From positions 3,581 to 67,580 of the forward strand of contig URND01000002.1 of the NCBI GenBank assembly GCA_900549105.1: DNA of 64,000 nt, read 5' to 3'. Position numbers and translations under genes: made by a program. Positions 1-53,941 of this stretch are shown in pieces; positions within the stretch are counted from its first letter, which is position 1; every line of letters starts with the position of its first letter. Origin of the DNA: an uncultured Eubacteriales bacterium. Lineage in GTDB: Bacteria > Bacillota > Clostridia > Lachnospirales > Lachnospiraceae. Under the pieces are notes generated by a model. The model saw nothing but the letters and a program-made list of their open reading frames with translations. It did not search any database and had not been told where the DNA came from.

Positions 1-188
1 TATTGTAATCACGATAAAGAATGTCTTTCACTATAGGTGTTAAGGAAAAGATGCGTGAAAAAATAAGCAATACAAGTGTTATTGCTTGTGTTGCCATTAA
101 AAGCATGACGGTTACTTGTAAATTCTTTGTTTCAATTAATGTTTCCTGCAAATAGGACAGCGTATCCATTCAAGCGCACTTTTCATAT

Positions 189-776: not shown

Positions 777-809
777 ACTAATTTTCTCCTGAATTCTGTC
801 TGCTCTTTT

Positions 810-9397: not shown

Positions 9398-10305
9398 TTT
9401 TCAGTGAACTCTACAGTGTTTATTATAATACAGTTGCGGAAATTTTGAAGGCTGCGATTGACCATCCTCTGGGAAAAAATGAATTGAGGCGGATTGTGGA
9501 GGAGCGGGCCTTTGGCGAAAGTATATTGAATATTGAACCTTCATTGATGGAAGGCAGATGGCAGCTATTGAAGCGGGACGGAACTACCCCTATTCAGAGT
9601 GTGCCTTCGATGCCGCTGACGATGATACAAAAGCGTTGGCTGAAAGCAATTTCCCTGGATTCAAGAATTCGATTGTTTCAGGATGAACTCATGGTTCTTC
9701 CGGATGTGGAGCCGCTTTTTACGGAAGAAGATATCTGCATCTTTGATAAGTATGCGGACGGTGATAATTATAGGGATGAAGCATACATAAAAAATTTTCG
9801 GCGGATTCTGGATGCTGTCAGAAACCGCTATCCTCTGAGCATCGATGTTCTTAATCGCAGAGGTCATAGGACACCTATAATATTAATGCCAGAATATTTG
9901 GAGTATTCTGAGAAGGATGATAAATTCCGGCTGATCGGTTCGGGATGCCGTTTTGGCAGAACAGTGAATCTGGGAAGAATTATCCGTTGCGAGCGGTATA
10001 CGGGGGCAAATGTCATTGGTTCTAATGAACGGAAGCTTCAGAGGCCGCGAAGTGTTCAATTTGAACTTGTAAATCGGAGGAATGCCCTGGAGCGGGTTCT
10101 TCTGCATTTTGCTCATTTTGAGAAGCAGGCGGAACGAATTGATGGCCAGCGCTATAAGGTAACGATTTATTATGATAAAGATGATGAGACGGAGATGGTT
10201 ATTCGAATTCTTTCATTTGGACCTATGATAAAGGTTACAGCCCCGGCCCATTTCATAAACTTAATAAAAGAGCGGTTGATTCATCAGAAAAGTTGCGGGT
10301 TTTAA
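9394..10305 (+). CDS. WYL-domain transcriptional regulator (second of a pair)
   Basis: The C-terminus 'YKVTIYYDKDDETEMVIRILSFGPMIKVTAPAHFINLIKERL' resembles the WCX extension of WYL regulators. The paired arrangement is like PafB/PafC. Confidence 0.55.
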   Translation: MIFSELYSVYYNTVAEILKAAIDHPLGKNELRRIVEERAFGESILNIEPSLMEGRWQLLKRDGTTPIQSVPSMPLTMIQKRWLKAISLDSRIRLFQDELMVLPDVEPLFTEEDICIFDKYADGDNYRDEAYIKNFRRILDAVRNRYPLSIDVLNRRGHRTPIILMPEYLEYSEKDDKFRLIGSGCRFGRTVNLGRIIRCERYTGANVIGSNERKLQRPRSVQFELVNRRNALERVLLHFAHFEKQAERIDGQRYKVTIYYDKDDETEMVIRILSFGPMIKVTAPAHFINLIKERLIHQKSCGF

Positions 10306-10325
10306 AAGGTTCGCAACTTTTTTTC
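10292..10325 (+). terminator. putative intrinsic terminator after the WYL pair
   Basis: A 6-bp stem (GTTGCG...CGCAAC) encloses a 14-nt loop and is followed by TTTTTTT. The stem is weak but the T-tract is strong. Confidence 0.4.
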
Positions 10326-10384
10326 CGTGATAAGCTATTTGCCGTTATATAAAATGGGAATAGAAATAAGAAAGGGTGAGCAGG

Positions 10385-12211
<1,827 letters not shown>

Positions 12212-37488: not shown

Positions 37489-38175
37489 ATGAGATTAGTC
37501 AATTATTGGTATATTGATAAGCAAGGTATAGATAATTTATTATCCCAGATATCTTCAGATTTTATTCAAGAAGAGCATATAAAGATGACTCAAAAAGGAG
37601 CTGGCAGCGTTTCTGGAAATATAGGTTTGGCGAAATTACTTAAACAACTGTTTAATGTAGATGTAAACTTGTCCGGTGGGGTTGAAACTACTCGTACAAT
37701 TGAAAAAGTAGAAATACAACCTTATGAAACAAAAATCCAACATCTCAAAAAGTATATTGAAGAAAATGAAGTTTTGTTGCGTAATAAACAGGAAATATTT
37801 ACAAAGTATGAGCTGGGAAAAACAAACTTTGTTTTTGGCAATATTGAATTTGATACAAAATTAAATGTAAAAAATTGGGAAGAAGCAGTGGGATTTATAC
37901 AGCAATGGGGATATATACCATTTTATAATAACGGTATAAATATGTATGACGAAAGAGATGATTATTTTAAGAATTCTAATGCTATTAATGCTGAAATAGT
38001 AATGAGCATGGGAATTGACAAAATGCAGACTTCCTATTCTGGATTTACTTCACATCTTGCGACTTCATTAAGAAAATTAGGTGGTAAAGACATTCCTTTA
38101 GGAGTTTTCGGACATATTTTGCAACTGAGTTCTGATTTTTATCAAATTAAGCCATATGCTGTTTGGCTAGGATAA
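37489..38175 (+). CDS. hypothetical protein (228 aa, no recognisable domain), first gene of the AT-rich island
   Basis: AAAGGGGG lies 8 nt upstream of the ATG. The ORF has an AT-rich codon composition distinct from the flanking genes. Confidence 0.5.
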   Translation: MRLVNYWYIDKQGIDNLLSQISSDFIQEEHIKMTQKGAGSVSGNIGLAKLLKQLFNVDVNLSGGVETTRTIEKVEIQPYETKIQHLKKYIEENEVLLRNKQEIFTKYELGKTNFVFGNIEFDTKLNVKNWEEAVGFIQQWGYIPFYNNGINMYDERDDYFKNSNAINAEIVMSMGIDKMQTSYSGFTSHLATSLRKLGGKDIPLGVFGHILQLSSDFYQIKPYAVWLG

Positions 38176-38267
38176 ATTGTAGAATGTACAACTTTATAAT
38201 CGCTTCATATATAATTGATAAATAGTTTTTTGTCTAAAATAGAGATAAAAATTTGGGAGGAATTAAA

Positions 38268-40295
38268 ATGATACTACCGTTAAGTGTAAAAAATCAAAGT
38301 ATAGAGTCGTCTGGGATTACGAATGACTATAAGGAAGCTATATGTGAATATATATGGAATGGTCTTGAAGCTCATGCGACAGAAATTAATATTAATTTTA
38401 GTCATAATATTGCCTATGGTATTGATAACCTCTCAATTTCAGATAATGGTGATGGGATTAGTTATGAGGAATTAGGAGATACATTTGGGGCATTTTTGGC
38501 TTCAAAGAAGAATCTTATGTCTTTGAAAATGAAATCTAAAGCGAATAAAGGAAAAGGACGATTTTCTTTTATGGCATTTGCATGTAGTGCAAAATGGACT
38601 ACGGTATATAATGATGGTAAAGAATTAAAAACATATGATATTATTTTGGAAAATGACAAAAAGGAAGTAATAATTTGTACGGAGCCAACAACGTCAATAG
38701 AAAGAAACACAGGTACTAAAGTATTTTTTAGTAATATTTATTCTTTGACAACAGAGAACATGGCTTTTGATGTACTTGAGCCTGTATTACTAAAAGAATT
38801 TGCATGGTTTTTATATTTATTCAAAAATCGAAATATAAGTATTTGTGTAGATGGAACACCTATTAATTATGGAAAATATATTAATACTGAGTTAAGCGAG
38901 AAAGTATCAAAAATAATTGATAATATCAGATTTGAAATTAATTTAGTTGTATGGCAAGAATCTATAAAAGAAAAATTTTGTTGTTATTATTTTGATAGTA
39001 CTGATATTGTAAGGGGTAGAGAAACTACGACATTTAATAGAAATACTATTGATTTTAATCATAGTGTTTTTGTAAAGTCTGAATTTTTTGATGAGAAAGA
39101 TGATATAGAAAAACAATTGGACGCTTTGCAAATTAGTTTGTTTGAATCAGAGGATGACAAAAAAACATTTAAAAAATTAAAAAAATTTATATCTTCTTTT
39201 ATCGAAAAAAAGATTGGAACATATATGTCACAAAGAGCAGAAAAGGCAATAAAAGAGATGATGGAGGAAAGAAAAACCTTTCCGACATTTTCCGATGATG
39301 CTTATGGGAGGATGAGAAAGCAAGACTTAGTAAAGATTACAGAAGAAATATATAAGATTGAACCTAAAATATTTTATAAACTTAAACCTATTCAGGAAAA
39401 ATCTTTGCTTGGATTCTTAAATTTGCTTTTAAATTCTGAGGAAAGAGAGAATGTATTATCAATAATTGAACAAATCGTTGAATTGTCGCCAGAGCAAAGG
39501 CAGGATTTTTCAGATATGTTGAAAAAAACTAAATTGGAAAATATTATAGAGTCTATAAAATTTATAGAGGGTAGATACAAAGTTATAGAACTGCTGAAAA
39601 CTATAGTATACGATTTGACGCAATTTGCTAATGAAAGAGATCATATTCAGAAAATTGTAGAACAACATTTTTGGCTTTTTGGAGAACAATATAATCTTGC
39701 CAGTGCCGATCAGCAGATGAAAAAGGCATTAGAGAAATACATCAATATTTTATATGGAGAAAACGACATTAATGCAACATTAAAGGAGGATGTTGAACAA
39801 GAGCGAAGAATGGATATTTTTATGTGTAATTCAAGAGAAGTCGAGAATTCATTTGAAACAGTGTTAGAAGAGAATATCATTGTAGAATTAAAAGCGCCAA
39901 AAGTTTCGTTATCAAAAAAGGTTTTAAGGCAAGTTGAAGATTATATGGATTTTATAAGAAAACAACCAGACTTTAATAGCGAGTACAGACGGTGGAAATT
40001 TATTGCTGTATGCAGACGAGTTGATGAAGATATAAAAAGTCGTTATGAAACCTTTAAAGATAAAGGAAAAATAGGATTAGTAGTACAAGTAGAAAATTAT
40101 GAAGTGTATGCATACACATGGGACGATGTATTTAAAAGTTTTGAACTAAGACATGCCCCAATTTTGAAGCGGTTAAAATATGACAGAGAACAGTTGGCAA
40201 AAGAACTTATGGATGAAGTTGCATCGGATGAGGGGCGTGGTAAAGTAGATGCTTTAACAGACATAGCGGTATCAACTATTTCAAACGTACAATAA
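38268..40295 (+). CDS. GHKL (histidine-kinase/MORC-type) ATPase fused to a C-terminal PD-(D/E)xK-like nuclease domain
   Basis: GGGAGG lies 8 nt upstream of the ATG at 38268. The N-box-like motif is 'EAICEYIWNGLEAHATEININF', the G1 box is 'ISDNGDGIS' and the G2-like motif is 'GKGRFSFMAF'. The C-terminal 'RMDIFMC...IIVELKAPK' gives a D...E-x-K pattern. Confidence 0.55.
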   Translation: MILPLSVKNQSIESSGITNDYKEAICEYIWNGLEAHATEININFSHNIAYGIDNLSISDNGDGISYEELGDTFGAFLASKKNLMSLKMKSKANKGKGRFSFMAFACSAKWTTVYNDGKELKTYDIILENDKKEVIICTEPTTSIERNTGTKVFFSNIYSLTTENMAFDVLEPVLLKEFAWFLYLFKNRNISICVDGTPINYGKYINTELSEKVSKIIDNIRFEINLVVWQESIKEKFCCYYFDSTDIVRGRETTTFNRNTIDFNHSVFVKSEFFDEKDDIEKQLDALQISLFESEDDKKTFKKLKKFISSFIEKKIGTYMSQRAEKAIKEMMEERKTFPTFSDDAYGRMRKQDLVKITEEIYKIEPKIFYKLKPIQEKSLLGFLNLLLNSEERENVLSIIEQIVELSPEQRQDFSDMLKKTKLENIIESIKFIEGRYKVIELLKTIVYDLTQFANERDHIQKIVEQHFWLFGEQYNLASADQQMKKALEKYINILYGENDINATLKEDVEQERRMDIFMCNSREVENSFETVLEENIIVELKAPKVSLSKKVLRQVEDYMDFIRKQPDFNSEYRRWKFIAVCRRVDEDIKSRYETFKDKGKIGLVVQVENYEVYAYTWDDVFKSFELRHAPILKRLKYDREQLAKELMDEVASDEGRGKVDALTDIAVSTISNVQ

Positions 40296-41458: not shown

Positions 41459-42079
41459 ATGAAGAAAATTGATTTGTCTGCATGGGAACGAAGCTTGCAC
41501 TATCAAGTATTCCGAGATAGTGTACAACCACAGTATTGTGTGAGCTTTGACCTTGATATTACGAACTTTTTGTCACAAATCAGATTGAAAGGTTATTCAT
41601 TTACGTTTTCTTTTGTATTTGCTGTTTCAAAGTGTGCAAATGAGATTAAGGAGTTCCGATACCGATTTGTAGATGGTGAGCCTGTTGAGTTTGAAAGAAT
41701 TAATACAGCATTTACCTATTTGAATAGAGAAACGGAGTTATTTAAAGTTGTAAATGTGGAAATGCAAGATACGCTGGAAGAATATGTGGCGGTAGCAACT
41801 CGAATTGAAAAAGAGCAAAAGGAGTATTTTACTGCTCCACTAGGAAATGATGTATTCCAGTTTTCAGCTTTCCCTTGGGTGAGTTTTACTCATATTTCCC
41901 ACACGGATTCGGGCAAAAAAGATAATGCAACGCCGCTATTTGATTGGGGTAAATATTACGAAAAGGACGGTAAAATTTTATTGCCATTTTCAGCACAGGT
42001 GCATCATTCTTTTGTAGATGGTGTGCATATCGGGAAATTAGCAGAGAAATTGCAGCACTATTTGGATACTTATAAATAA
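41459..42079 (+). CDS. chloramphenicol O-acetyltransferase-family (type A CAT-like) protein
   Basis: It shows CAT architecture throughout. The C-terminus 'WGKYYEKDGKILLPFSAQVHHSFVDGVH' aligns with the CAT catalytic-His region (HHAVCDGFH), and the N-terminus 'IDLSAWERSLHY' is also CAT-like. Confidence 0.75.
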   Translation: MKKIDLSAWERSLHYQVFRDSVQPQYCVSFDLDITNFLSQIRLKGYSFTFSFVFAVSKCANEIKEFRYRFVDGEPVEFERINTAFTYLNRETELFKVVNVEMQDTLEEYVAVATRIEKEQKEYFTAPLGNDVFQFSAFPWVSFTHISHTDSGKKDNATPLFDWGKYYEKDGKILLPFSAQVHHSFVDGVHIGKLAEKLQHYLDTYK

Positions 42080-42097: not shown

Positions 42098-42523
42098 GTG
42101 AGTAATCGTAAGGCAGCTTTTTCGGCAGAAAGCTATACCCTTTCGGGCATTCCGCATGTCAGATGCTTCGCATGGGCGCGCTGCGTCAGGCTTCGCGCGA
42201 TAAGGTATGATAAAGATATTTTAAATACTATACCGTATTATGATAAAGCTTATAATCAGATAGCAGATGTGGTTTCAGCTGCATTTTCAAATAAGGCAGT
42301 ATCTTGGCTGGATATAGGCTGTGGGACTGGCAAAATGGCAAAAGTGGCATTTGAACAATGCAATGTGGAAAAGATGATTTGTACGGATAATTCATCTGTT
42401 ATGTTAAAGGTTGCAAGACAGAAAATCAGTTTTCCCAGTGTAGAATTTTTAAAACTTCCAGTAGAAGAAATAAACTATGATTCGCAATTTGATGTAATTA
42501 CTTCTATCTTGGTGAATCACTAG
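42098..42523 (+). pseudogene. class I SAM methyltransferase, C-terminally truncated, with copy 1 of a 66-bp repeat embedded in its 5' end
   Basis: Motif I 'LDIGCGTGK' is present. The ORF ends at '...ILVNH' before the usual post-IV motifs, and the downstream frame is broken by several stops. Confidence 0.45.
42142..42207 (+). repeat. 66-bp GC-rich repeat, copy 1
   Basis: ttcgggcattccgcatgtcagatgcttcgcatgggcgcgctgcgtcaggcttcgcgcgataaggtat. It is about 91% identical to copy 2 at 47176-47241 in the same orientation. Confidence 0.8.
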
Positions 42524-45186: not shown

Positions 45187-45591
45187 ATGCTTATGCAAAA
45201 GAGAAAGAATGATTTGAATTTTGATAAATTTATAAAATTCCCGATGCCTGAGAAAATATTTAACGGTCCAAAAATAAAAGTCAGAGAAGATGGGCAGGTT
45301 TTCATCAGTCCATCGGTGATTAAAATGATAAAGGAAAATAACGAGGAGATGTGGGTGGATTCTCGGTACTCGGAGGATTATAAAACCATCGCCATAAAAC
45401 TGGATGGGGACAAGAGTTTCAGGTTTCCGAGAGGCGGTGCGATGAAGTTTAAGAAATGGAAAGAGATTCTCCAAAAGTTTGGTTATTCGATACCGGCTGT
45501 GTACTGGCTGGAATGGAATCCGGAAGAAAATCTCTGGATTGGCCGGCTTCAGGAAGTATCCGAATCTCCGGATATCGGGAGAATGGGATGA
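45187..45591 (+). CDS. hypothetical protein (134 aa)
   Basis: The ORF has an ATGA stop/start overlap with the next gene at 45588, indicating translational coupling. Confidence 0.4.
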   Translation: MLMQKRKNDLNFDKFIKFPMPEKIFNGPKIKVREDGQVFISPSVIKMIKENNEEMWVDSRYSEDYKTIAIKLDGDKSFRFPRGGAMKFKKWKEILQKFGYSIPAVYWLEWNPEENLWIGRLQEVSESPDIGRMG

Positions 45592-46112
45592 TAAAACGGC
45601 AGAAGGAGATGTCGGATTATGAATATACACAGCTGGACAAAATGGTATACCAGTTATACTTAGTTTATGGAAAAGGTTTGGAATTTGATGAATGTCGAAG
45701 TATTGCCTTTCTGAAATATGTTGAAGTGAGGAATGAACTGGATAACTTTTATAATGAGGATTTGCTGTGGATATATTCCCAAAATCGGATTATTGATGCC
45801 TTTAAGGATGAGCGGAGAAAAAGAAATGATAAGATTCGTTTAGAGGCAAAATTATCTTTGAATCAATTTATTGGAGATTCCGATGAGCCGGTTTATACTA
45901 TTTTATTTCCTGTTCGTGGGAACTTTGTTAATCATGTGTGCTTATGGAATGATATGAGACGATTTGGAAAAAGGTGCTATAAGATTTTATCTGCCCTGTA
46001 CTGGGGCGATGAGGACTGGGAGATTGTAGACGGGTTGAAAATATCTGCGAAGGAATACTTTGAAATGAAAAATTATCTTAGAATAAAATTGAAAGAGTAT
46101 GTGGAAATATGA
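45588..46112 (+). CDS. small sigma-70-family-like protein (ECF/TcdR-sized, regions 2 and 4)
   Basis: 'LLWIYSQNRIIDAFKDERRKRN' is region-2.2-like. 'CYKILSALYWGDEDWEIVDGLKISAKEYFEMKNYLRIKLKE' is a region-4-like HTH. The protein is 175 aa and coupled to both the upstream and downstream genes. Confidence 0.4.
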   Translation: MIKRQKEMSDYEYTQLDKMVYQLYLVYGKGLEFDECRSIAFLKYVEVRNELDNFYNEDLLWIYSQNRIIDAFKDERRKRNDKIRLEAKLSLNQFIGDSDEPVYTILFPVRGNFVNHVCLWNDMRRFGKRCYKILSALYWGDEDWEIVDGLKISAKEYFEMKNYLRIKLKEYVEI

Positions 46113-47590
46113 GGAAGATAACAAAGAGAAGTATCCGGGATGAAGATATTGATATCGGGCGGATTTCGAAGCGCTTGGAAGAAATTGCGGCTGCAATTAA
46201 AATGAATAATAAGAATAATCTGACGGATATAAATGTCATTTGTGAAGAGATTTTTGGCCGGATTTTGGATAGATTGTATGATATCCATCTTGTGTCACTG
46301 TCCGCAAAAGTATCAGGGAATTTTATAGCAGTGGATTTGATTGATTACGAAAACAGAATCGCATTTCAGGTGACATCAAGGGATGATAGAGAAAAGATAG
46401 AGAAAACGATTGAAAAGTTTAATGGTTCTGATTTAATTGGGTATATCGATACTCTGAATATTCTTGTTTTAAATTCCAATATTCATCATTATAGAGAGCC
46501 GGATATTGTCCGCCTGGAAAATGGAAAAGAATTTTCCTATTCGAAAAACATTTTGAATTTTAACAAACTGATTGAAGAGATAGCTAAGAAAAATGTTGAG
46601 AAAAACGGATTTATTGTGGACGTATATGATATCATCAATATGGTATATGATTCCGGGCGGCTGCGTTATTTCAGTATAAACAGGAAAACGGAAATGCTGA
46701 TGCAGACGGAGAGTGATGACTTCGGTGATGTCAGATTGTGGAAGAAAGGGTACGGCGATATTCAACTGACAGCCTATATCCCACTGTCTTATGAGGAAGA
46801 GATATGCTGTATGATGGAAAATCGCCAGCATAATATATCCGGCGTGTATCCTACATTTAATCAGGATAAGCTGCTTGAAGATTATTTTGTTTCGGAAGAA
46901 GAATTTGAAAATAAGCATAATGTCGGCCGATTTGAGGATGAAGAAGAGATTTTTATGCAGATTGAAAACATGCGTATATGTGTCAATGCGCATACGGCCC
47001 ATCATATCTACAAATTATTTGAAGAATTAAAAGACGAGTATATCGCGGCTCAGAATCAAATCGCTTCTGTTCTGGGAGTCGAAGGGCTGAAAAAAGTAGG
47101 AAAAAAGTACCTGCTTATGACCATCGATGGGACGGCATGGAAGGAAATATTGTTTTTTGCGAAAAATCATGCCCATTCGGGCACCCCGCATGTCAGATGC
47201 TCCGCATGGGCGCGCTTCGTCAAGCTCCGCGCGATAAGGTATAGTTGTTTCAAGGAAGATGGCGAAGAGGAATGGAATATATTTAATAATTGCACGGGAG
47301 ACAGAGTTACATTGTCCTTGAATGTCTATGGAAAAATTCGCGGGGATATATTGGCAGAAATCTCTGTTGATTTATCGGAATTTGAGAATGATAAGTTGAA
47401 TTTGTATTGGAGTCCGGGGTACAAGTTTGATACAAATTGTATGGATTGTTTTGACAATGTTGTCAAATGGAAGGCGGATTATACGAAAGAGTGGATTGAA
47501 AACAAACTGTTAAAAAAGGCCCATGATTTTTGGGTCGAATATCATAAAAGAAATTCGGGATGGAGAAGATTATTTGGTGTAAAGGAGTGA
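46109..47590 (+). CDS. hypothetical 493-aa protein with an N-terminal conflict-system-like domain; copy 2 of the 66-bp repeat lies in its 3' third
   Basis: Its start overlaps the sigma-like gene (ATGA). The N-terminal ~110 aa 'INVICEEIFGRILDRLYDIHLVSLSAKVSGNFIAVDLIDYENRIAFQVTSRDDREKIEKTIEKF' resemble, by uncertain recall, the SMEK-type N-terminal domains described in NTP-dependent conflict systems. Confidence 0.4.
   Translation: MRKITKRSIRDEDIDIGRISKRLEEIAAAIKMNNKNNLTDINVICEEIFGRILDRLYDIHLVSLSAKVSGNFIAVDLIDYENRIAFQVTSRDDREKIEKTIEKFNGSDLIGYIDTLNILVLNSNIHHYREPDIVRLENGKEFSYSKNILNFNKLIEEIAKKNVEKNGFIVDVYDIINMVYDSGRLRYFSINRKTEMLMQTESDDFGDVRLWKKGYGDIQLTAYIPLSYEEEICCMMENRQHNISGVYPTFNQDKLLEDYFVSEEEFENKHNVGRFEDEEEIFMQIENMRICVNAHTAHHIYKLFEELKDEYIAAQNQIASVLGVEGLKKVGKKYLLMTIDGTAWKEILFFAKNHAHSGTPHVRCSAWARFVKLRAIRYSCFKEDGEEEWNIFNNCTGDRVTLSLNVYGKIRGDILAEISVDLSEFENDKLNLYWSPGYKFDTNCMDCFDNVVKWKADYTKEWIENKLLKKAHDFWVEYHKRNSGWRRLFGVKE
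47176..47241 (+). repeat. 66-bp GC-rich repeat, copy 2
   Basis: ttcgggcaccccgcatgtcagatgctccgcatgggcgcgcttcgtcaagctccgcgcgataaggtat. It is read in the same frame as copy 1 (..PHVRC.AWAR.V.LRAIRY). Confidence 0.8.
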
Positions 47591-47594
47591 TATC

Positions 47595-48626
47595 ATGTTG
47601 GCCTATACTTATATTGAAAAGGGAAAATTTGAATTGCGGGAGAAACCAAAGCCGGAGCTGCAGAATGAGAAGGATGCTATTGTCAGGATAACCCTTGCCA
47701 GTATCTGTACAAGCGATTTACATATTAAGCACGGTTCAGTTCCAAGAGCTGTACCGGGGGTGACCGTGGGGCATGAGATGGTAGGCATCGTGGAGACCGT
47801 GGGGGATGCGGTAAAAACAGTAAAGCCGGGAGACAGGGTCACTATAAATGTGGAAACATTTTGCGGAGAATGTTTTTTCTGTAAAAACGGTTATGTAAAT
47901 AATTGTACCGATTCCGATGGCGGATGGGCGTTGGGCTGCCGTATTGACGGCGGACAGGCGGAGTATGTCCGTGTGCCTTATGCAGACCAGGGATTAAACC
48001 GGATACCGGATAGTGTGACGGATGAACAGGCATTATTTGTCGGAGACATTCTTGCTACAGGATTTTGGGCGGCTCGGATATCTGAAATTAAACCGGAGGA
48101 TACGGTGCTTATTATCGGTGCGGGTCCTACCGGAATATGTACCTTATTGTGCGTGATGCTGAAAAAGCCGAAACGGATTATCGTATGCGAGAAAGATAAA
48201 GTTCGGAGAGAATTTGTACAGAAATATTATCCGGAGGTAAGTGTTGTTGAGCCGGAGCAGCTTCAGCAATTTGTAAAAGAAAACAGCGATCACGGCGGAG
48301 CGGATGTGATACTGGAGGTTGCCGGGGCAAAAGATACTTTCAGGATGGCATGGGAAAATGCAAGACCCAATGCCATTGTGACTGTTGTGGCCTTGTATGA
48401 CGAGGCGCAGATATTGCCGCTGCCGGATATGTATGGGAAAAATCTGACTTTCAAAACGGGCGGTGTCGATGGCTGTGACTGCGAAGAAATACTTCGGCTG
48501 ATTGAGGAAGGAAAAATTGATACAACGCCTTTGATTACCCATACATATCCTCTTGAGCATATTGCAGAAGCCTATGATTTGTTTGAAAACAGGCGGGACA
48601 ATGTTATCAAAGTGGCTATTAAATAA
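47595..48626 (+). CDS. Zn-dependent alcohol dehydrogenase (MDR superfamily)
   Basis: The catalytic Zn motif is 'GHEMVGIVETVGDAV', the structural Zn motif is 'CGECFFCKNGYVNNC' and the Rossmann motif is 'IIGAGPTG'. Confidence 0.85.
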   Translation: MLAYTYIEKGKFELREKPKPELQNEKDAIVRITLASICTSDLHIKHGSVPRAVPGVTVGHEMVGIVETVGDAVKTVKPGDRVTINVETFCGECFFCKNGYVNNCTDSDGGWALGCRIDGGQAEYVRVPYADQGLNRIPDSVTDEQALFVGDILATGFWAARISEIKPEDTVLIIGAGPTGICTLLCVMLKKPKRIIVCEKDKVRREFVQKYYPEVSVVEPEQLQQFVKENSDHGGADVILEVAGAKDTFRMAWENARPNAIVTVVALYDEAQILPLPDMYGKNLTFKTGGVDGCDCEEILRLIEEGKIDTTPLITHTYPLEHIAEAYDLFENRRDNVIKVAIK

Positions 48627-49241: not shown

Positions 49242-52200
49242 ATGGGATTTTTAAACAGGATTTTTGGTTATAAAAAAGTAAAAATGGATAATTCTCCAAA
49301 GGATTCTATTATATCGGAAAATTCCATTCCTAAGAATGAAAATGTTATCAAATTGATTGAACTGAAATCTTTTATTGGTTCTTTAATGGATGCTGACAGG
49401 TATATTGCAAAGAGTGAATATAATGAAGAAGTAAAGAACTGCTCTGATGTCATTTCATTTTTTAATGTATTGAAAAGCAGCGGAATGTTGGATAAGTTTT
49501 GCCAGCTTAATGGCATTTCTCTGGCCGAAATTGAAGATACTTTATATTGTTATGAAAATATAGAAAAGCAGATGGCGCAGCATAATGATGATTTTGTTGT
49601 GAGGACCATGGTTAGGGAGAAGTTTTACCTGGATAATGTTTTGAAAGCAGTTGACCCGGTAATTTCTTTGGATGAAGACCAGAGAAGGGTGATTTTAACG
49701 GATGAAGATTATTGTTTAGTTATTGCAGGTGCAGGTGCCGGAAAGACAACAACCGTTGCTGCAAAGGTAAAATATCTTGTGGATAAGCAGGAGGTTAAAC
49801 CTTCGCAGATTCTTGTCGTTTCATATACAAATAAAGCGGTAAATGAGCTGAAGGAAAAGATACATGGCGCCTTAAAAATTGAGTGCCCGATTGCAACATT
49901 TCATTCTGTGGGAAATACTATCATACATGCGAATACACCGGATGTACAGTTGAAAATTGTTGAAGATTATAGATTATATTTTGTAATCAGAGATTATTTT
50001 CGAGGTTCTCTTATGCGGAAAGAGAGCGTTGTCAATAAACTGATTATGTTTTTTGCTTCCTATTTTGATGCACCGTATGAGGGTGACGATTTAAATGGAT
50101 TCTTCAATAATATTGCGAAAGCAAATTATTCAACGATGAGAAGCGACCTGGAAGATTTTAAGCGTGAAGTCATTGATGCAAGAACGAAGAAGTCAGTCAC
50201 CATTCGAAATGAGGTTTTGAGGTCTCATCAGGAGGTGGAGATTGCAAATTTTCTTTATCTTAACAACATTGATTATGAGTATGAGCCTATTTATCCGTAT
50301 AATATGCCATATGCCCGGAAACCATATACGCCGGATTTTGTCATCTATCAGGATGGCAGGAGCGCCTATATAGAACATTTTGGAATATCGGAAAATGGAC
50401 AAAACGACATATATTGCCAGGAAGAATTGGACCGATATAAAAAGGCGGTAAATGATAAAGTAAAGTTACATAAGCAGCATGGAACGACATTGATTTATAC
50501 ATTTTCATCATATAATGACAAAAAACCGTTGTTAGTTCATCTTCGCGAGGAGATGGAGGAAAAAGGCTTCGAACTTAAACAAAGGTCAGATAAAGAAGTA
50601 ATGGAAATGTTGGTCGCAGGAGAAGAGAACCGATATGTCCGTAAGTTAGTCAATCTTATCTGCCGGTTTATTTCTAATTTCAAAGTCAATGGATATACGG
50701 AGGAGGAGTTTAGCCGCATGTATCATTCTACCCAGAATGTACGGAGCAGACTGTTTTTGGATATTTGTAATGATTGTTATCTGGAGTATGAAAGATGGTT
50801 GAAAGAGAACAGCGCGGTTGACTTTGAAGATATGATTAATGAATCTGCCAAAATTCTCAAAGAAGTAAAAGAAATGAAGCAGAAACTGGATTATAAGTAC
50901 ATTATCGTGGATGAGTATCAGGATATTTCCAGACAGCGATTTGACCTTGTTAAGGCATTGTCTGAAGTGACAAATGCAAAGATTATTGCGGTTGGCGATG
51001 ACTGGCAGTCTATTTATGCCTTCAGCGGTTCGGATATTACTCTTTTCACTAAATTTAAGGAGAAGATGGGCTATGCCAGGATGCTGAAGATTGTAAAGAC
51101 TTATAGAAATTCTCAGGATGTCATAGATATTGCCGGGAACTTTATACAGCGTAATACGGAACAGATTCCTAAACAGTTGATTTCAGATAAGAGAATAGAG
51201 AATCCTGTGATTATATATACATATGATAGTACATTAAAAAGCAGAGATGGAAGTCGTAGAAACGGAGCAAATTATGCGTTGGCGCGTGCGGTAGAAACGG
51301 CGTTAGCCCAACTCCTGGAGTATAAGAAAAAAGAAAATAAAGAGCCGGGACCGATTTTATTGCTGGGAAGATTTGGCTTCGATGGAGATAATCTGGAAAG
51401 GTCAGGCTTGTTTGAATATATAAATCGGGGAAATAAAGTGAAGAGTGTTAAATATCCGAAATTGGATATTACCTTTATGACGGCCCATTCATCTAAGGGG
51501 TTGGGATATGATGATGTTATTATTGTGAATGGAAAAAATGAAACTTATGGATTTCCGTCAAAAATTGAAGATGACCCGGTTTTGGCTTTTGTGATTAAAG
51601 GGGACAGGTCTATTGATTATGCGGAAGAGAGAAGATTATTCTATGTTGCTATGACGAGAACAAAGAATAGAGTTTTCCTGATTGCACCGGAGAAAAATCC
51701 ATCAGAGTTTCTGCTTGAATTAAAGAGGGATTATAAGAATGTTATCCTATGTGGGGAGTGGAATGATGAAAACATTTCAACCACATTGAAGAAGTCATGC
51801 CCTCTTTGCGGATTTCCGATGCAGCTTAAATATAAAAGAGCATACGGTTTGCGGCTTTATATATGTACGAATGAGCCGGAGATTTGTGGGTTTATGACTA
51901 ATGATTATCGCTCTGGCAAGATGTCGATTCAAAAATGTGATAAATGTCAGGATGGATATCTGATTGTAAAACAGGGACAGAATAAAGATTTCTTTCTGGG
52001 ATGTACGAATTATAAAGCAGATGGAAGTGGATGTGGGAAGATGGTCAGCAAGAAGGCTTTTTATGAGCAGATGGGATATGAGACAGAGGGACCCGCAGTC
52101 AGACAGGATATCAGGACTCAGGGAAAAATCGAGGGAAAGTCCCGGAAAGTGGTTTTAGATATCGAAAGAAAGCCTGTTGTCAGTGAAGAACTTAAAGATG

Positions 52201-52610
52201 ACTATATCGAAGTTGTGCGTGCGGATGTAAAACCGGTGATGTATGGAAAATATGATGTGAATGATTTGATCTATATGGTAATAAAAATACTTCAGGATAT
52301 CAGCAGAGACAGGTTTTACGGTGTAACAGTACTTGCTGATGTGCTGAAGGGAGTGACCAGTAAACAAATATTGGATGATAAATTGGATGAGATACCTGAA
52401 TTTGGCTTTTTAAAGGATATGCCCTGGGAAACAATTCAGGCAGTTATTGAGTGGATGATATATGAGCATTTGATTTTGAAGACAAAGGGAAGGTATCCGG
52501 TGCTGCATTCAACCTATGAAGGTTTACATTATTCAGAAATCATTACGCAAAATAAACTCAAAAAGCTTAAGAAATATTTAGAGGAAGAGGTGGTTCTATG
52601 GAATCCGTAG
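49242..52610 (+). CDS. UvrD/Rep-family SF1 helicase with an inserted PD-(D/E)xK-like module, C-terminal topoisomerase-type zinc ribbons and an RQC-like winged helix
   Basis: Walker A is 'AGAGAGKTTT', motif II is 'IIVDEYQDISR', motif III is 'IAVGDDWQSIYAFSG' and the motif VI region is 'FYVAMTRTKNRV'. The insert is 'EVEIANFLYLNNIDYEYEP...YTPDFVIYQDGRSAYIEHFG'. The Cys ribbons are 'CPLCGF...C', 'CDKCQDG' and 'CTNYKADGSGC'. The C-terminal region 'GVTVLADVLKG...YPVLHST' resembles the RecQ RQC winged helix. Confidence 0.75.
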   Translation: MGFLNRIFGYKKVKMDNSPKDSIISENSIPKNENVIKLIELKSFIGSLMDADRYIAKSEYNEEVKNCSDVISFFNVLKSSGMLDKFCQLNGISLAEIEDTLYCYENIEKQMAQHNDDFVVRTMVREKFYLDNVLKAVDPVISLDEDQRRVILTDEDYCLVIAGAGAGKTTTVAAKVKYLVDKQEVKPSQILVVSYTNKAVNELKEKIHGALKIECPIATFHSVGNTIIHANTPDVQLKIVEDYRLYFVIRDYFRGSLMRKESVVNKLIMFFASYFDAPYEGDDLNGFFNNIAKANYSTMRSDLEDFKREVIDARTKKSVTIRNEVLRSHQEVEIANFLYLNNIDYEYEPIYPYNMPYARKPYTPDFVIYQDGRSAYIEHFGISENGQNDIYCQEELDRYKKAVNDKVKLHKQHGTTLIYTFSSYNDKKPLLVHLREEMEEKGFELKQRSDKEVMEMLVAGEENRYVRKLVNLICRFISNFKVNGYTEEEFSRMYHSTQNVRSRLFLDICNDCYLEYERWLKENSAVDFEDMINESAKILKEVKEMKQKLDYKYIIVDEYQDISRQRFDLVKALSEVTNAKIIAVGDDWQSIYAFSGSDITLFTKFKEKMGYARMLKIVKTYRNSQDVIDIAGNFIQRNTEQIPKQLISDKRIENPVIIYTYDSTLKSRDGSRRNGANYALARAVETALAQLLEYKKKENKEPGPILLLGRFGFDGDNLERSGLFEYINRGNKVKSVKYPKLDITFMTAHSSKGLGYDDVIIVNGKNETYGFPSKIEDDPVLAFVIKGDRSIDYAEERRLFYVAMTRTKNRVFLIAPEKNPSEFLLELKRDYKNVILCGEWNDENISTTLKKSCPLCGFPMQLKYKRAYGLRLYICTNEPEICGFMTNDYRSGKMSIQKCDKCQDGYLIVKQGQNKDFFLGCTNYKADGSGCGKMVSKKAFYEQMGYETEGPAVRQDIRTQGKIEGKSRKVVLDIERKPVVSEELKDDYIEVVRADVKPVMYGKYDVNDLIYMVIKILQDISRDRFYGVTVLADVLKGVTSKQILDDKLDEIPEFGFLKDMPWETIQAVIEWMIYEHLILKTKGRYPVLHSTYEGLHYSEIITQNKLKKLKKYLEEEVVLWNP

Positions 52611-53164
52611 ATATGAAAAAACTTGAGACAGCCATTCTGTATTTACAGAGAATTGCCGATGGGCATAATCCGGTGAACAATATGCCGGCGGATGATGATG
52701 CGGTGCTTAACAATCCAAATGTGATTCGCTGCATGTATTTTGTAAAAGAGATACTGGAAGAAGTGAAGCGCAACAATGGTTATATTGGAAAGAAAGCAAG
52801 AAAAATCGACAAACCGAATTTTCCGCTGGAGGCACTGTCTTCATTTATGTATAAGGAAGATAAATCGATATCCAAGCTGGTAGCGCAGATGAATGAACTG
52901 ATTGATGAAAATGTTTATCAGAAACTGTCTTATAAACCGATTGTGCAGTGGCTTAAACAGAATGGTTTTCTGACAGAGGAATTTAGTCAGGAATTAAATA
53001 AAATATGTACCATGCCTACGGAAAAGGGTAGTCAGTTGGGGATTAGGGCTGAAAGAAAAACCAGTTTCAAGGGTGTGGACTATATGATTATTCTGTACGG
53101 CCGGCAGGCTCAGGAGTATATTGTAAAAAACATGGAGACGATTCTTAGCAGTGCGGAAGCGTGA
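52598..53164 (+). CDS. hypothetical protein (188 aa) overlapping the helicase 3' end
   Basis: The 13-nt overlap with the helicase stop suggests co-translation. No recognisable motifs. Confidence 0.4.
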   Translation: MESVDMKKLETAILYLQRIADGHNPVNNMPADDDAVLNNPNVIRCMYFVKEILEEVKRNNGYIGKKARKIDKPNFPLEALSSFMYKEDKSISKLVAQMNELIDENVYQKLSYKPIVQWLKQNGFLTEEFSQELNKICTMPTEKGSQLGIRAERKTSFKGVDYMIILYGRQAQEYIVKNMETILSSAEA

Positions 53165-53188
53165 TGAAAAGATTCTGGAAGAGGTGAG

Positions 53189-53941
53189 ATGATGACTTTG
53201 CGGAAAGAAGTGCTTGCGTTTATAAAAAAGGAATATAATGTGGAAGCAGAATGTCCCTGGGCCAGATATCCGGAGAATGAGGTTTTCCGCCATGAGGATA
53301 ATAATAAATGGTTTGCCCTCATCATGCCTGTTGGGAAAAAGCACCTGGGGATGGGCGGCGAGGGCTATGTCGATATTATCAATGTAAAACTTGATTCGAT
53401 GCTCATCGATATGCTGAGGCAGCAGGAGGGATTTCTCCCAGCCTATCATATGAATAAGTCCAACTGGATAAGTATCCGGCTGGATGGAAGTGTAGAGTTG
53501 GAGCAAATATACAATCTGATTTCTCAGAGTTATATTGCAACGGCCAGTAAGAAAAATAAGAAGAAGTTAAATCGTATAGGACCAAAGGACTGGATTATTC
53601 CGGCAAATCCAAAATATTATGATGTGGTTGGCGCTTTTGAGGCTTCTGATACAGTCACATGGAAACAAAGCAGCGATATTCATGTTGGGGATATTGTTTA
53701 TATGTATGTGGCGGCGCCTTACTCATCCATTATGTATAAGTGTAAAGCTGTTGAGGTGAATATCCCACGAAGATATTCCGATAAAAATCTAACTATAAAG
53801 AACACAATGGTTTTAGAACTTTTGGAAAAGTACGCGCCGGGCACGTGGTCCTTTGAGAAGATAAAGCAGTTTGGCGTGTATGCTGTCCGTGGACCAAGAA
53901 GCATGCCGGCGGAACTTAAAAGAGAGATGGAACGCGGATAG
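53189..53941 (+). CDS. YjbR/MmcQ-family domain fused to an EVE/PUA-like domain
   Basis: The N-terminus 'ECPWARYPENEVFRHEDNNKWFALIMPVGKKHL' is YjbR-like. The C-terminus 'DWIIPANPKYYDVVGAFEASDTVTWKQSSDIHVGDIVYMYVAA' is EVE/PUA-like. Confidence 0.5.
   Translation: MMTLRKEVLAFIKKEYNVEAECPWARYPENEVFRHEDNNKWFALIMPVGKKHLGMGGEGYVDIINVKLDSMLIDMLRQQEGFLPAYHMNKSNWISIRLDGSVELEQIYNLISQSYIATASKKNKKKLNRIGPKDWIIPANPKYYDVVGAFEASDTVTWKQSSDIHVGDIVYMYVAAPYSSIMYKCKAVEVNIPRRYSDKNLTIKNTMVLELLEKYAPGTWSFEKIKQFGVYAVRGPRSMPAELKREMERG

What the first reader, a model, noticed from the sequence alone, without database searches (positions are those of the whole stretch)
49242..53941. 1122-aa UvrD-like helicase with inserted nuclease-fold module, zinc ribbons and RQC-like domain, followed by an unknown protein and a YjbR plus EVE-like fusion
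The helicase has full SF1 motifs, but between motifs I and II it carries a ~60-aa segment with a restriction-endonuclease-like pattern (E...YTPDF.IYQDG...IEHFG). It has three Cys4-type ribbons near residues 835-900 and a C-terminal region resembling the RecQ winged helix. Its stop overlaps a 188-aa unknown ORF. Then 25 nt later comes a protein joining a YjbR/MmcQ-like DNA-binding domain to a PUA/EVE-like domain. EVE domains read modified bases. A helicase-nuclease plus EVE reader in one locus could be a modification-dependent restriction-like system or a specialised repair factor.
Basis: partly seen in the sequence, partly recalled or inferred. Interest (0 to 1): 0.55.

Follow-up and report, generated by a model that had tools for sequence, protein, structure and literature searches.

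The report
Helicase-nuclease pair beside resident YjbR-PUA gene
The three genes are real, but they are not one system. A large DNA helicase with a built-in junction-cutting nuclease and an optional small partner protein sit, apparently by chance, next to an already-described DNA-binding/base-reader fusion gene that tends to lie beside variable defence-gene hotspots.

Summary
All three ORFs exist as described.

- **Helicase (1122 aa).** It is a helicase IV/UvrD-like SF1 motor with every motif intact. A ~230-aa insertion between the TFH motif and motif II has a ~130-aa core related to T7 endonuclease I, a PD-(D/E)xK Holliday-junction resolvase. The E-D-E residues are invariant and the canonical Lys is replaced by Phe. 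The protein also has two (not three) Cys4 ribbons and an RQC winged helix.
- **ORF3.** It is YjbR plus a PUA-like (ASCH/YTH/EVE superfamily) domain. This fusion class was described by Bell, Wolf and Koonin (2020) as sitting beside variable defence/MGE hotspots.
- **Triad.** It is not co-conserved. None of 60 informative helicase-anchored loci has ORF3, and none of 6 ORF3-anchored loci has the helicase or ORF2.
- **ORF2.** It is an optional, translationally coupled partner: 7 of 60 helicase loci and 15 of 43 ORF2 loci. It belongs to a large uncharacterised family whose KilAC/antirepressor-like C-terminal module also occurs fused to RecQ, next to RecD2, and next to a stand-alone copy of the same nuclease.
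- **Neighbours.** Genes around the helicase are typically defence genes.

Most likely this is an accessory (defence-type) helicase-nuclease module. It is not an EVE-guided restriction system.

The parts
49242..52610 (+). 1122-aa helicase IV/UvrD-like SF1 helicase-nuclease gene
   Evidence: ORF. Pfam UvrD-helicase 5e-52, AAA_19, UvrD_C, RQC and Zn_ribbon_Top1. NCBIfam helicase IV scores 297 bits, below the cutoff of 543. All SF1 motifs are present.
49242..49661 (+). Variable N-terminal region (aa 1-140), no recognised domain
   Evidence: No Pfam or PADLOC hit. Only 31-49% identical among orthologs whose cores are 75-90% identical.
49947..50639 (+). Insertion (aa ~236-466) between the TFH motif and motif II. 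E. coli HelD lacks it; it maps between PcrA residues ~132 and ~169.
   Evidence: BLASTP against E. coli HelD aligns window 105-235 to HelD 164-290 and window 467-828 to HelD 350-674, so ~232 aa here correspond to ~60 aa in HelD. PcrA alignment.
50154..50546 (+). T7-endonuclease-I-like PD-(D/E)xK nuclease core (aa 305-435). Invariant residues: E330, E347, D364, Q369, E377, H378, K405, H409. F379 occupies the canonical Lys position.
   Evidence: Profile A5 against PDB hits only T7 endonuclease I (2pfj 0.0013, 1m0d 0.0019), with E20/D55/E65 aligned. Eighteen of 19 members hit Pfam Phage_endo_I, best 7e-5. PHROGs Holliday junction resolvase 8.8e-6; PADLOC PDC-S68 8e-11. Residues are conserved down to 31-44% identity.
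51798..51887 (+). Cys4 zinc ribbon 1 (aa 853-882, CPLC...C-x6-C)
   Evidence: Pattern scan. Pfam Zn_ribbon_Top1 gives 2 stretches in the C-terminal segment.
51936..52034 (+). Cys4 zinc ribbon 2, topoisomerase type (aa 899-931)
   Evidence: Pfam Zn_ribbon_Top1 at 897-924, 33.9 bits against a cutoff of 32. Pattern scan.
52248..52520 (+). RQC winged-helix domain (aa 1003-1093)
   Evidence: Pfam RQC 2.2e-13, 50.5 bits against a cutoff of 23. NCBIfam RQC_minor_1 4e-11. PADLOC DpdF 4e-6.
52598..53164 (+). ORF2, 188 aa: facultative helicase partner. N-terminal helical module (aa 1-60) plus KilAC/antirepressor-like C-terminal module (aa ~63-185).
   Evidence: Overlaps the helicase stop by 13 nt. No Pfam, NCBIfam or PADLOC hit. 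The family has 1906 clusters at 50% identity. AF2 pLDDT 85 with no significant PDB match. BFVD antirepressor hits with probability 0.85-0.95. Distant members hit Pfam ANT at 8.7e-4 and PHROG anti-repressor at 1.6e-4. The C-module is fused to RecQ.
53189..53941 (+). ORF3, 250 aa: MmcQ/YjbR (aa 1-125) plus PUA-like (ASCH/YTH/EVE superfamily) domain (aa ~131-250). A resident backbone gene, not part of the helicase module.
   Evidence: Pfam YjbR 8.9e-21. PDB 2kfp 2.9e-28. AF2 pLDDT 85.7. Foldseek: 3h9x TM 0.96 for the N-terminal half; ASCH and YTH at probability 1.0 for the C-terminal half. Weak Pfam EVE in 10 of 47 members. The class is described in PMC7641849. Not co-conserved with the helicase or ORF2.

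Best explanation
The locus contains two unrelated units.

Unit 1 is an accessory helicase-nuclease module made of the helicase and ORF2.
- The helicase is an SF1A (UvrD/helicase IV-like) ATP-driven motor.
- It carries a T7-endonuclease-I-like PD-(D/E)xK module inserted at a position corresponding to PcrA residues ~132-169. From memory, not tested here, this is the region of accessory domain 1B.
- A C-terminal DNA-binding tail holds two Zn ribbons and an RQC winged helix.
- Inferred mechanism: the RQC domain and ribbons anchor the enzyme on duplex or branched DNA, the motor unwinds or translocates, and the inserted nuclease cuts the branched or unwound DNA it encounters.
- ORF2 is an optional, translationally coupled adaptor. 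Its KilAC/antirepressor-like C-terminal module is interchangeable: free-standing after this helicase, fused to the C-terminus of a RecQ that is itself coupled to this helicase, next to RecD2, or next to a stand-alone copy of the same nuclease. The N-terminal module of the free-standing form plausibly docks it to its partner.
- The module sits in variable, defence-gene-rich neighbourhoods. Its most likely role is defence against phages or mobile DNA by degrading their replication or recombination intermediates.

Unit 2 is ORF3, an ordinary member of the already-described MmcQ/YjbR-EVE(PUA-like) fusion class. It is a backbone gene beside which variable genes accumulate.

Shown: the domain identities, residue conservation, co-occurrence statistics and neighbourhood content. 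Inferred: catalytic activity, substrate, the role of ORF2, and the defence function.
For: - Domains and motifs.
- The insert is absent from E. coli HelD.
- The insert is T7 endonuclease I-like, with E330/D364/E377 aligned to E20/D55/E65. Eighteen of 19 members hit Phage_endo_I. PHROG HJ resolvase 9e-6 and PADLOC PDC-S68/S69. The stand-alone homolog in L010 hits PADLOC HEAT_CxxC_PD-DEXK. Residues stay invariant down to ~31% identity.
- Helicase-ORF2 pairs have overlapping or abutting stop and start codons in 15 of 43 informative ORF2-anchored loci and 7 of 60 helicase-anchored loci.
- A RecQ with the ORF2 C-module overlaps the helicase stop in L085-87. RecD2 lies next to ORF2 in 6 loci. A stand-alone nuclease lies next to ORF2 in L010.
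- Defence neighbours: AbiEi/AbiEii, N6_N4 methyltransferases, SNF2, SLFN-like helicase and MazG-like; PDC-S06 at 1e-155, type IV REase-like at 4e-36 and mad2; HNH_4, AAA_13, Fic and ImmA/XRE; DUF262/HEC-06 and GIY-YIG on a plasmid; and a SMEK / Aga_REase-type protein in the window itself.
- ORF3 independence. Literature.
Against: - The canonical catalytic Lys of the (D/E)xK motif is Phe379, so nuclease activity is not guaranteed.
- All Pfam and PDB matches of the insert are below curated thresholds.
- No experiment and no known defence-system model covers the helicase specifically. The PADLOC GajB and DRT hits are generic UvrD-core matches.
- Association with RecQ and RecD2, and with UvrX on the plasmid, fits a repair role equally well.
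- Most helicase loci lack ORF2 and most ORF2 loci lack the helicase, so the adaptor role is inferred from context only.
- In this genome the 24-nt ORF2-ORF3 gap, with no terminator-like site in it, means ORF3 is probably co-transcribed. A local functional link cannot be excluded.
Confidence: 0.55

Rival explanations
1. DNA repair or recombination enzyme. In this reading the helicase-nuclease is a specialised housekeeping-type factor that processes stalled forks, Holliday junctions or recombination intermediates. ORF2, RecQ and RecD2 would be repair partners rather than defence components.
For: - The nuclease module is related to a Holliday-junction resolvase.
- The RQC domain is typical of RecQ.
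- The closest curated family is helicase IV.
- RecQ is translationally coupled to the helicase in L085-87, and RecD2 lies next to ORF2.
- UvrX lies near the plasmid homolog.
- The helicase core is highly conserved, at 75-90% identity across Lachnospiraceae.
Against: - The neighbourhoods are not syntenic and are dominated by defence or toxin genes.
- In the one contig recovered from the closest relative, no helicase lies next to its ORF2 or ORF3 copies.
- Homologs occur on plasmids of many phyla.
- The same nuclease module occurs in PADLOC defence candidates.
Confidence: 0.25
2. Helicase-nuclease, ORF2 and the YjbR-EVE-like protein would form one modification-dependent (type IV-like) restriction system, in which the PUA/EVE-like domain reads modified bases and directs the nuclease.
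For: - The three genes are tightly packed on one strand, with a 13-nt overlap and a 24-nt gap.
- The arrangement is identical in near-identical contigs L056-59.
- ORF3 does contain a PUA-like fold.
- PUA/EVE domains fused to nucleases are known modification-dependent restriction enzymes (PMC7897488 and PMC6765204, listed).
- Rare helicase-YjbR-EVE fusions are mentioned in PMC7641849.
Against: - ORF3 is absent from all 92 helicase-anchored loci. Among 55 ORF2-anchored loci it occurs only in L013, 6 kb away and without the helicase.
- None of 6 ORF3-anchored loci has the helicase or ORF2.
- ORF3 and SpoU are backbone synteny in L013, while ORF2 lies elsewhere.
- The YjbR-EVE class is already known to flank unrelated variable genes.
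Confidence: 0.05
3. The inserted PD-(D/E)xK module is catalytically inactive and serves only as a junction- or DNA-recognition (or dimerisation) domain of a pure helicase. This reading is compatible with either a defence or a repair role.
For: The canonical Lys (T7 endonuclease I K67) is replaced by Phe379 in the window protein and in the aligned family members checked. Inactive PD-(D/E)xK domains used for DNA binding are known in other proteins (general knowledge).
Against: - Three metal-binding acidic residues, plus the adjacent H378, Q369, K405 and H409, are invariant down to 31% identity and in the stand-alone L010 nuclease. This pattern is typical of active sites in which the Lys has migrated.
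- Stand-alone and C-terminal effector-like versions exist in the defence candidates PDC-S68 and PDC-S69.
Confidence: 0.15

Closest known systems
E. coli DNA helicase IV (HelD, NCBIfam NF008276)
   Same: It is the best-scoring curated family (297 bits). The SF1 core is 30-31% identical on both sides of the insert. JGI names fragments of this family 'DNA helicase-4'.
   Different: The score is below the equivalog cutoff of 543. E. coli HelD has ~60 aa where this protein has a ~232-aa nuclease-bearing insertion. HelD also ends (684 aa) where the Zn ribbons and RQC tail begin here, and its first ~160 residues did not align.
Phage T7 endonuclease I (PD-(D/E)xK Holliday-junction resolvase; PDB 2pfj, 1m0d, 1fzr; Pfam PF05367)
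   Same: It is the only non-helicase PDB family hit by the insert profile. The E20, D55 and E65 equivalents are invariant, and the shared 'YTPDF' and 'E..G' strands align.
   Different: Here the module is embedded inside a helicase. K67 is replaced by Phe. Scores are below Pfam's gathering threshold. Whether the T7 enzyme's domain-swapped dimer architecture is kept is unknown.
Helicase-nuclease fusions (AddA/RecB with a C-terminal PD-(D/E)xK; the single-gene defence proteins Nhi and Hhe)
   Same: An SF1 helicase and a nuclease are combined in one polypeptide. The AddA and RecB models give partial hits on the helicase core.
   Different: The nuclease is inserted within the motor, between TFH and motif II, rather than appended at a terminus. 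It belongs to the T7 endonuclease I type. No AddB/RecC-type partner is present. Nhi and Hhe were not among the displayed PADLOC hits, and this comparison rests on general knowledge.
Gabija GajB (UvrD-like helicase)
   Same: GajB models give strong PADLOC hits (down to 8e-48) on the UvrD core.
   Different: The hits cover only the generic SF1 core. No GajA (OLD/TOPRIM) gene is adjacent; the neighbours are TspO and ORF2. GajB chains in the PDB are ~493-499 aa; from general knowledge they carry no nuclease insert, Zn ribbons or RQC.
MmcQ/YjbR-EVE fusion proteins (Bell, Wolf and Koonin 2020, PMC7641849)
   Same: ORF3 has the same two-domain architecture, with YjbR N-terminal and a PUA-superfamily domain C-terminal. 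It comes from a Firmicutes host and sits beside variable or defence genes: helicase plus ORF2 here, Wadjet and R-M in L153, an integrase in L160.
   Different: It lacks the DUF1831 domain common in the streptococcal examples. The C-terminal domain reaches Pfam EVE only below threshold, and its best structural matches are ASCH and YTH.
Phage antirepressor KilAC/ANT domain (Pfam PF03374)
   Same: The C-terminal module of the ORF2 family gives weak Pfam ANT hits (8.7e-4 and 8e-3), PHROG anti-repressor hits (1.6e-4), and BFVD fold matches to antirepressor proteins at probability 0.85-0.95.
   Different: ORF2 itself hits no library. All matches are below thresholds. ORF2 has a distinct conserved N-terminal module, and its context is helicase or nuclease genes rather than phage lysogeny switches.
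PADLOC phage-defence candidates PDC-S68 and PDC-S69
   Same: They share the same nuclease module: the insert against PDC-S68 gives 8e-11, and the L010 stand-alone nuclease against PDC-S68 gives 1.9e-29.
   Different: In the PDC-S68 model the matching module is at the C-terminus of a ~1200-position profile, and PDC-S69 is a 289-position profile; here the module is inserted inside a helicase. They are candidates only, and no paper was found that describes them.

Membership tests
SF1A UvrD/Rep/PcrA-like helicases | Complete set of helicase motifs Q, I, Ia, II, III, IV, V and VI, and Pfam UvrD-helicase/UvrD_C above threshold | tested here: met
   Motifs located at residues 143, 163, 195, 557, 585, 621, 747 and 802. 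PF00580 scores 177.7 bits against 23, and PF13361 scores 53.4 against 25.6. PDB UvrD and PcrA hits at 1e-36 to 1e-33.
DNA helicase IV (HelD) equivalog NF008276 | Whole-protein score above the curated cutoff (543 bits), and the same domain layout as E. coli HelD | tested here: not met
   297 bits against 543. The protein has a ~170-aa net insertion and a ~290-aa C-terminal extension relative to HelD, and the N-terminal ~100 aa are unrelated.
PD-(D/E)xK nucleases, T7 endonuclease I type (PF05367) | Conserved catalytic E, D and E residues in the alpha-beta-beta-beta core | tested here: met
   E330, D364 and E377 align to E20, D55 and E65 and are invariant.
PD-(D/E)xK nucleases, T7 endonuclease I type (PF05367) | Catalytic Lys of the (D/E)xK motif | tested here: not met
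   Phe379 occupies the K67 position. Invariant H378 and K405 might substitute, but this was not tested.
PD-(D/E)xK nucleases, T7 endonuclease I type (PF05367) | Score above Pfam's gathering threshold (29.1 bits) | tested here: not met
   The window protein scores 15-17.6 bits. Eighteen of 19 members match at E up to 1, best 7e-5. No 3D model of the insert was made.
RQC winged helix (PF09382) | Pfam score above threshold | tested here: met
   50.5 bits against 23 at residues 1003-1093.
Topoisomerase-type C4 zinc ribbon (PF01396) | Four Cys in CxxC...CxnC spacing, and Pfam score above threshold | tested here: met
   33.9 bits against 32 at residues 897-924. Two ribbons are found, at 853-882 and 899-931, not three.
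MmcQ/YjbR (PF04237) | Pfam score above threshold, and a structural match to solved YjbR proteins | tested here: met
   74.8 bits against 30.1. 2kfp at 2.9e-28. Foldseek 3h9x with TM 0.96.
EVE domain (PF01878) | Pfam EVE above threshold, or closest structural match to EVE structures | tested here: inconclusive
   The window protein has no hit even at E up to 10. Ten of 47 homologs give weak EVE hits, best 0.008. The profile finds nothing in the PDB by sequence. The best Foldseek matches are ASCH and YTH, with no EVE entry in the top 50. Membership of the PUA-like superfamily is met; the specific EVE family is unresolved.
MmcQ/YjbR-EVE fusion class (PMC7641849) | YjbR followed by a PUA/EVE-type domain in one protein, sitting at a conserved position adjacent to variable MGE or defence genes | tested here: met
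   Architecture. More than 1800 homologs, mostly ~246 aa and named MmcQ/YjbR. Variable flanks in the window, L153, and L159 versus L160. Text of the paper.
Modification-dependent (type IV) restriction system with a PUA/EVE reader | The reader domain is fused to, or conserved in an operon with, the nuclease | tested here: not met
   No ORF3/PUA-like gene in the 92 helicase-anchored loci; among the 55 ORF2-anchored loci it occurs only in L013, 6 kb from ORF2 and without the helicase. None of 6 ORF3-anchored loci has the helicase.
Gabija | A GajB helicase encoded next to a GajA OLD-family ATPase/TOPRIM nuclease | tested here: not met
   The adjacent genes are TspO (upstream, opposite strand) and ORF2. 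No GajA-like gene is present. The GajB hits are generic.
KilAC/ANT antirepressor domain (PF03374), for ORF2 | Pfam score above threshold (25.3 bits) | tested here: not met
   ORF2 has no hit. The distant family members P0403 and P0429 score 20 and 16.9 bits. Supporting but marginal PHROG and BFVD matches exist.

The most novel reading that the evidence does not exclude
The helicase-nuclease together with an ORF2-type module would be an uncharacterised modular anti-phage or anti-plasmid system. The ORF2-type module can be free-standing or fused to a coupled RecQ. In this reading the KilAC-like ORF2 module is a plug-in sensor or adaptor shared by three helicase classes (UvrD/helicase IV-like, RecQ, RecD2) and by a stand-alone T7-endonuclease-I-like nuclease. 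It would target these enzymes to branched replication or recombination intermediates of invading DNA.
Probability: 0.2. Interest if true: 0.6.

Novelty: new variant of a known kind. Interest (0 to 1): 0.35.

Why it matters
Helicase-nuclease fusions are common tools of both DNA repair and anti-phage defence. In this family a Holliday-junction-resolvase-type nuclease sits inside the motor and is combined with an RQC tail. I could not find that layout described. The family is abundant in human-gut and rumen Lachnospiraceae (more than 500 metagenome hits), with distant relatives on plasmids of many phyla.

ORF2 is the less expected element. It belongs to a very large, unannotated family (~1900 clusters at 50% identity), and its C-terminal module repeatedly attaches to different helicases. 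It may therefore be a general helicase accessory domain.

The negative result also matters. The attractive 'EVE reader plus nuclease' reading arises from adjacency alone, and YjbR-EVE genes are already known to sit next to unrelated variable genes.

Tried and rejected
1. My first reading of the insert motif was Vsr/DUF559-like. Pfam, PDB, PHROGs and PADLOC gave no support for it, and all pointed to T7 endonuclease I / PD-(D/E)xK instead.
2. The ORF2 profile against PDB sequences gave only prion-protein hits at E=0.01-0.3. I judged these spurious.
3. The profile of the ORF3 C-terminal domain against PDB sequences gave no hits. Only the structure comparison was informative.
4. A homolog search with the insert alone returned only fragments of 431 aa or less, so it gave no information on architecture.
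5. Gabija and DRT hits in PADLOC are generic UvrD-core matches. No partner genes are present.
6. The phage collection gave only 4-8 kb unannotated 'Bacteriophage sp.' virome fragments and no complete phage. The 12 IMG/VR contigs carry distant homologs only, so no convincing phage origin emerged.
7. Foldseek of the ORF2 model against the PDB found nothing significant. The best meaningful matches were PadR/MarR winged helices at E>0.1.
8. Literature searches for this helicase architecture and for PDC-S68/S69 found nothing relevant.
9. The promoter and terminator scan found no more sites than in shuffled sequence, so it was uninformative.
10. No tRNA genes were found in the window.

Full report
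**Observation**

- the helicase at 49242-52610 (1122 aa);
- ORF2 at 52598-53164 (188 aa), whose ATG lies 13 nt before the end of the helicase gene;
- ORF3 at 53189-53941 (250 aa), after a 24-nt gap.

Near-identical metagenome contigs (L056-L059, 98% nt identity) show the same order: TspO(-), helicase, ORF2, YjbR gene, SpoU methylase(-).

**The helicase**

Pfam gives UvrD-helicase (5e-52), AAA_19, UvrD_C, one topoisomerase-type zinc ribbon and RQC, all above threshold. Every SF1 motif is present. The closest solved structures are UvrD, PcrA and Rep.

The best curated family is E. coli helicase IV, but at 297 bits against a cutoff of 543. Direct BLASTP with E. coli HelD aligns residues 105-235 and 467-828 at about 30% identity. 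HelD has ~60 residues where the window protein has ~232. HelD also lacks the C-terminal 290 residues.

Cysteine spacing shows two Cys4 ribbons, at 853-882 and 899-931, not three.

**The insert**

An alignment of 24 homologs shows these invariant residues: E323, S327, E330, E347, D364 (in YTPDF), Q369, E377-H378 (in IEHFG), K405 and H409.

- A profile of the ~130-aa core hits only one non-helicase family in the PDB, T7 endonuclease I (2pfj 0.0013, 1m0d 0.0019). E330, D364 and E377 align with the catalytic E20, D55 and E65. Phe379 falls at the position of K67.
- Eighteen of 19 members hit Pfam Phage_endo_I (best 7e-5). Minor hits to the bunyavirus L-protein N-terminal domain and TnsA-N also appear; from memory, both are PD-(D/E)xK families.
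- PHROGs gives 'Holliday junction resolvase' (8.8e-6) and 'endonuclease' (9.4e-5).
- PADLOC gives the defence candidates PDC-S68 (8e-11) and PDC-S69.
- The motif residues persist in homologs only 31-44% identical: viral contigs, a Paenisporosarcina plasmid, and a stand-alone 304-aa nuclease in L010. The L010 nuclease also hits the PADLOC model HEAT_CxxC_PD-DEXK.

I conclude that the insert is a PD-(D/E)xK module of the T7 endonuclease I type with an intact acidic triad but a displaced or lost lysine.

**ORF3**

The N-terminal half is a standard YjbR domain (Pfam 8.9e-21; PDB 2kfp 2.9e-28).

The C-terminal half has no Pfam hit even at E up to 10 and no PDB sequence-profile hit. A confident AlphaFold model (pLDDT 85.7) does match known folds: YjbR structures for the N-terminal half (3h9x, TM 0.96), and ASCH and YTH domains for the C-terminal half (probability 1.0, TM 0.45-0.62). 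Ten of 47 family members give sub-threshold Pfam EVE hits. The domain is therefore PUA-like. Calling it 'EVE' specifically remains unresolved.

[quoted passage not shown] In Streptococcus, and similarly in Actinobacillus, they report that these genes occupy conserved positions next to highly variable regions holding mobile elements and defence genes (PMC7641849).

**Co-conservation**

| Anchor | Loci | Result |
|---|---|---|
| ORF2 | 55 in total, 43 informative | 15 have the insert-bearing helicase directly upstream with overlapping or abutting stop and start. One (L010) has a stand-alone nuclease of the same family. 27 have neither. |
| Helicase (metagenome) | 80 in total, 60 informative | The full architecture is retained. 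7 have stand-alone ORF2 downstream. 3 have a RecQ whose extra C-terminal ~120 residues match ORF2 positions 63-185, and this RecQ gene overlaps the helicase stop. 50 have neither. |
| ORF3 | 6 independent loci | None contains the helicase or ORF2. |

Further points:
- L003 and L009 show the helicase 3' part up to the contig end. L011 and L034 keep only a remnant of the helicase 3' end.
- The ORF3 PUA-like profile hits none of the 92 helicase-anchored loci. Among ORF2-anchored loci it hits only L013, where it is 6 kb from ORF2 and no helicase is present.
- ORF3 flanks are metabolic genes, or an R-M cluster plus Wadjet JetABCD (L153), or an integrase (L160).
- Nucleotide comparison with L013, the closest relative, shows that ORF3 and the SpoU methylase gene are shared backbone. 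The L013 ORF2 copy lies after a RecD2-like gene, and its homology to the window starts only 7 nt before the ORF2 start.

The triad is therefore not a conserved unit. The helicase-ORF2 link is real but facultative.

**ORF2**

ORF2 has no hit in Pfam, NCBIfam, PADLOC or PHROGs. It belongs to a very large family, with 1906 clusters at 50% identity at E up to 1e-3.

The family has a conserved ~60-aa N-terminal helical module and a ~120-aa C-terminal module that is duplicated in some members. The AlphaFold model (pLDDT 85.3) has no significant PDB match; the best meaningful resemblances are PadR/MarR winged helices at E>0.1.

Three weak, independent lines point to the phage antirepressor KilAC/ANT domain for the C-module:
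- Pfam ANT in the distant members P0403 (8.7e-4) and P0429 (8e-3);
- PHROG anti-repressor families (1.6e-4);
- BFVD fold matches to antirepressor proteins at probability 0.85-0.95 and E=0.02-0.16.

By context the module is tied to DNA-processing enzymes. It lies after the UvrD-like helicase, is fused to RecQ behind HRDC, sits ~45 nt upstream of a RecD2/YrrC-type helicase in six loci (Pfam-confirmed for L043), and lies next to the stand-alone nuclease in L010.

**Neighbourhoods**

The surroundings of the helicase are not syntenic and are rich in defence or conflict genes:
- SLFN-like helicase, MazG-like, AbiEi/AbiEii, two N6_N4 methyltransferases and SNF2;
- PDC-S06 (1e-155), a type IV REase-like helicase (4e-36) and mad2;
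- HNH_4, AAA_13, Fic and ImmA/XRE;
- GIY-YIG and DUF262/HEC-06 next to the plasmid homolog.

In the window itself, a SMEK-domain protein that hits the PADLOC model Aga_REase-PNTD lies 1.6 kb upstream, and a MORC-like HATPase lies in a 29% GC stretch further up.

Distant helicase homologs (27-36% identity) occur on 113 plasmids of many phyla. No complete phage carries the helicase.

**Interpretation**

The best-supported reading is an accessory helicase-nuclease module (helicase with or without ORF2), most likely acting in defence against invading DNA. It sits beside a resident YjbR-PUA gene of a class already known to border such variable genes. A repair or recombination role is the main rival, given the Holliday-junction-resolvase ancestry of the nuclease, the RQC domain, and the RecQ and RecD2 associations.

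The modification-dependent triad model fails its own refutation test. Catalytic competence of the nuclease is inferred only and is qualified by the missing canonical lysine.

**Novelty and score**

ORF3 belongs to an already-described class. Helicase-nuclease fusions are a known kind. The specific layout here (a T7-endonuclease-I-type nuclease inserted in the SF1 motor, plus Zn ribbons, plus RQC) and the ORF2 helicase-associated module appear undescribed in the literature I could search. I rate the finding as a new variant of a known kind, with moderate-to-low interest (0.35).

Noticed in passing
window 42119-42208 and 47153-47242; L056 1-52: A 90-nt GC-rich direct repeat (83% identity) occurs 5 kb apart. 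One copy lies inside the SMEK-domain ORF. A third copy abuts the TspO gene in the near-identical contig L056, where the window instead carries the alcohol-dehydrogenase-like gene 47595-48626. It could be a small repeated element or a recombination scar marking a variable segment.
   Followed up: partly
window 46109-47590 (with small ORFs 45187-45591 and 45456-46112 upstream): A 493-aa SMEK_N domain protein (Pfam 2.8e-33) hits the PADLOC model Aga_REase-PNTD1-PNTD2 (1.3e-27). It is a second defence or conflict-type gene 1.6 kb upstream of the helicase.
   Followed up: partly
window 37489-40295: A 680-aa HATPase_c_3 (MORC-like) protein and an unknown 228-aa ORF lie in a stretch of only 29% GC, against 40-50% elsewhere. 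This is probably horizontally acquired DNA.
   Followed up: no
window 41459-42079: A gene of the chloramphenicol acetyltransferase (CAT) family (Pfam 2e-39) sits in the same variable region.
   Followed up: no
L085, L086 and L087 (~9430-11960); L114 3522-5927 (-): RecQ proteins (DEAD, Helicase_C, Zn-bind, RQC, HRDC) carry an extra C-terminal ORF2-like module. In L085-87 the RecQ gene overlaps the stop of the UvrD-like helicase-nuclease gene.
   Followed up: partly
L010 1981-2895: A stand-alone 304-aa protein has a C-terminal nuclease module of the same family as the helicase insert (PDC-S68 1.9e-29; HEAT_CxxC_PD-DEXK 1e-6). It is encoded directly upstream of an ORF2 homolog, downstream of an EF-Tu-like ORF (my reading of the translation; not domain-tested).
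   Followed up: partly
L016 8650-9825; L083 4932-6056; also L019, L020, L085, L086, L094, L107: An HNH_4 endonuclease protein of ~375-390 aa with an unannotated N-terminal domain recurs next to the helicase or ORF2 in about 10 loci. It has no PADLOC hit.
   Followed up: no
L011 4390-4494; L034 7876-8007: ORF2 is preceded only by a short remnant of the helicase 3' end (68-77% identical to the last ~35-45 codons). This suggests deletion of the helicase with ORF2 retained.
   Followed up: no
L004-L006 (Fibrobacter intestinalis and relatives): An ORF2 homolog 64% identical to the window protein occurs alone in Fibrobacter, a different phylum from the Lachnospiraceae hosts. This suggests horizontal spread of ORF2 on its own.
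   Followed up: no
P0166 and P0171 (ORF3 homologs, 411-426 aa): Some YjbR-PUA proteins carry an additional C-terminal GNAT acetyltransferase domain.
   Followed up: no
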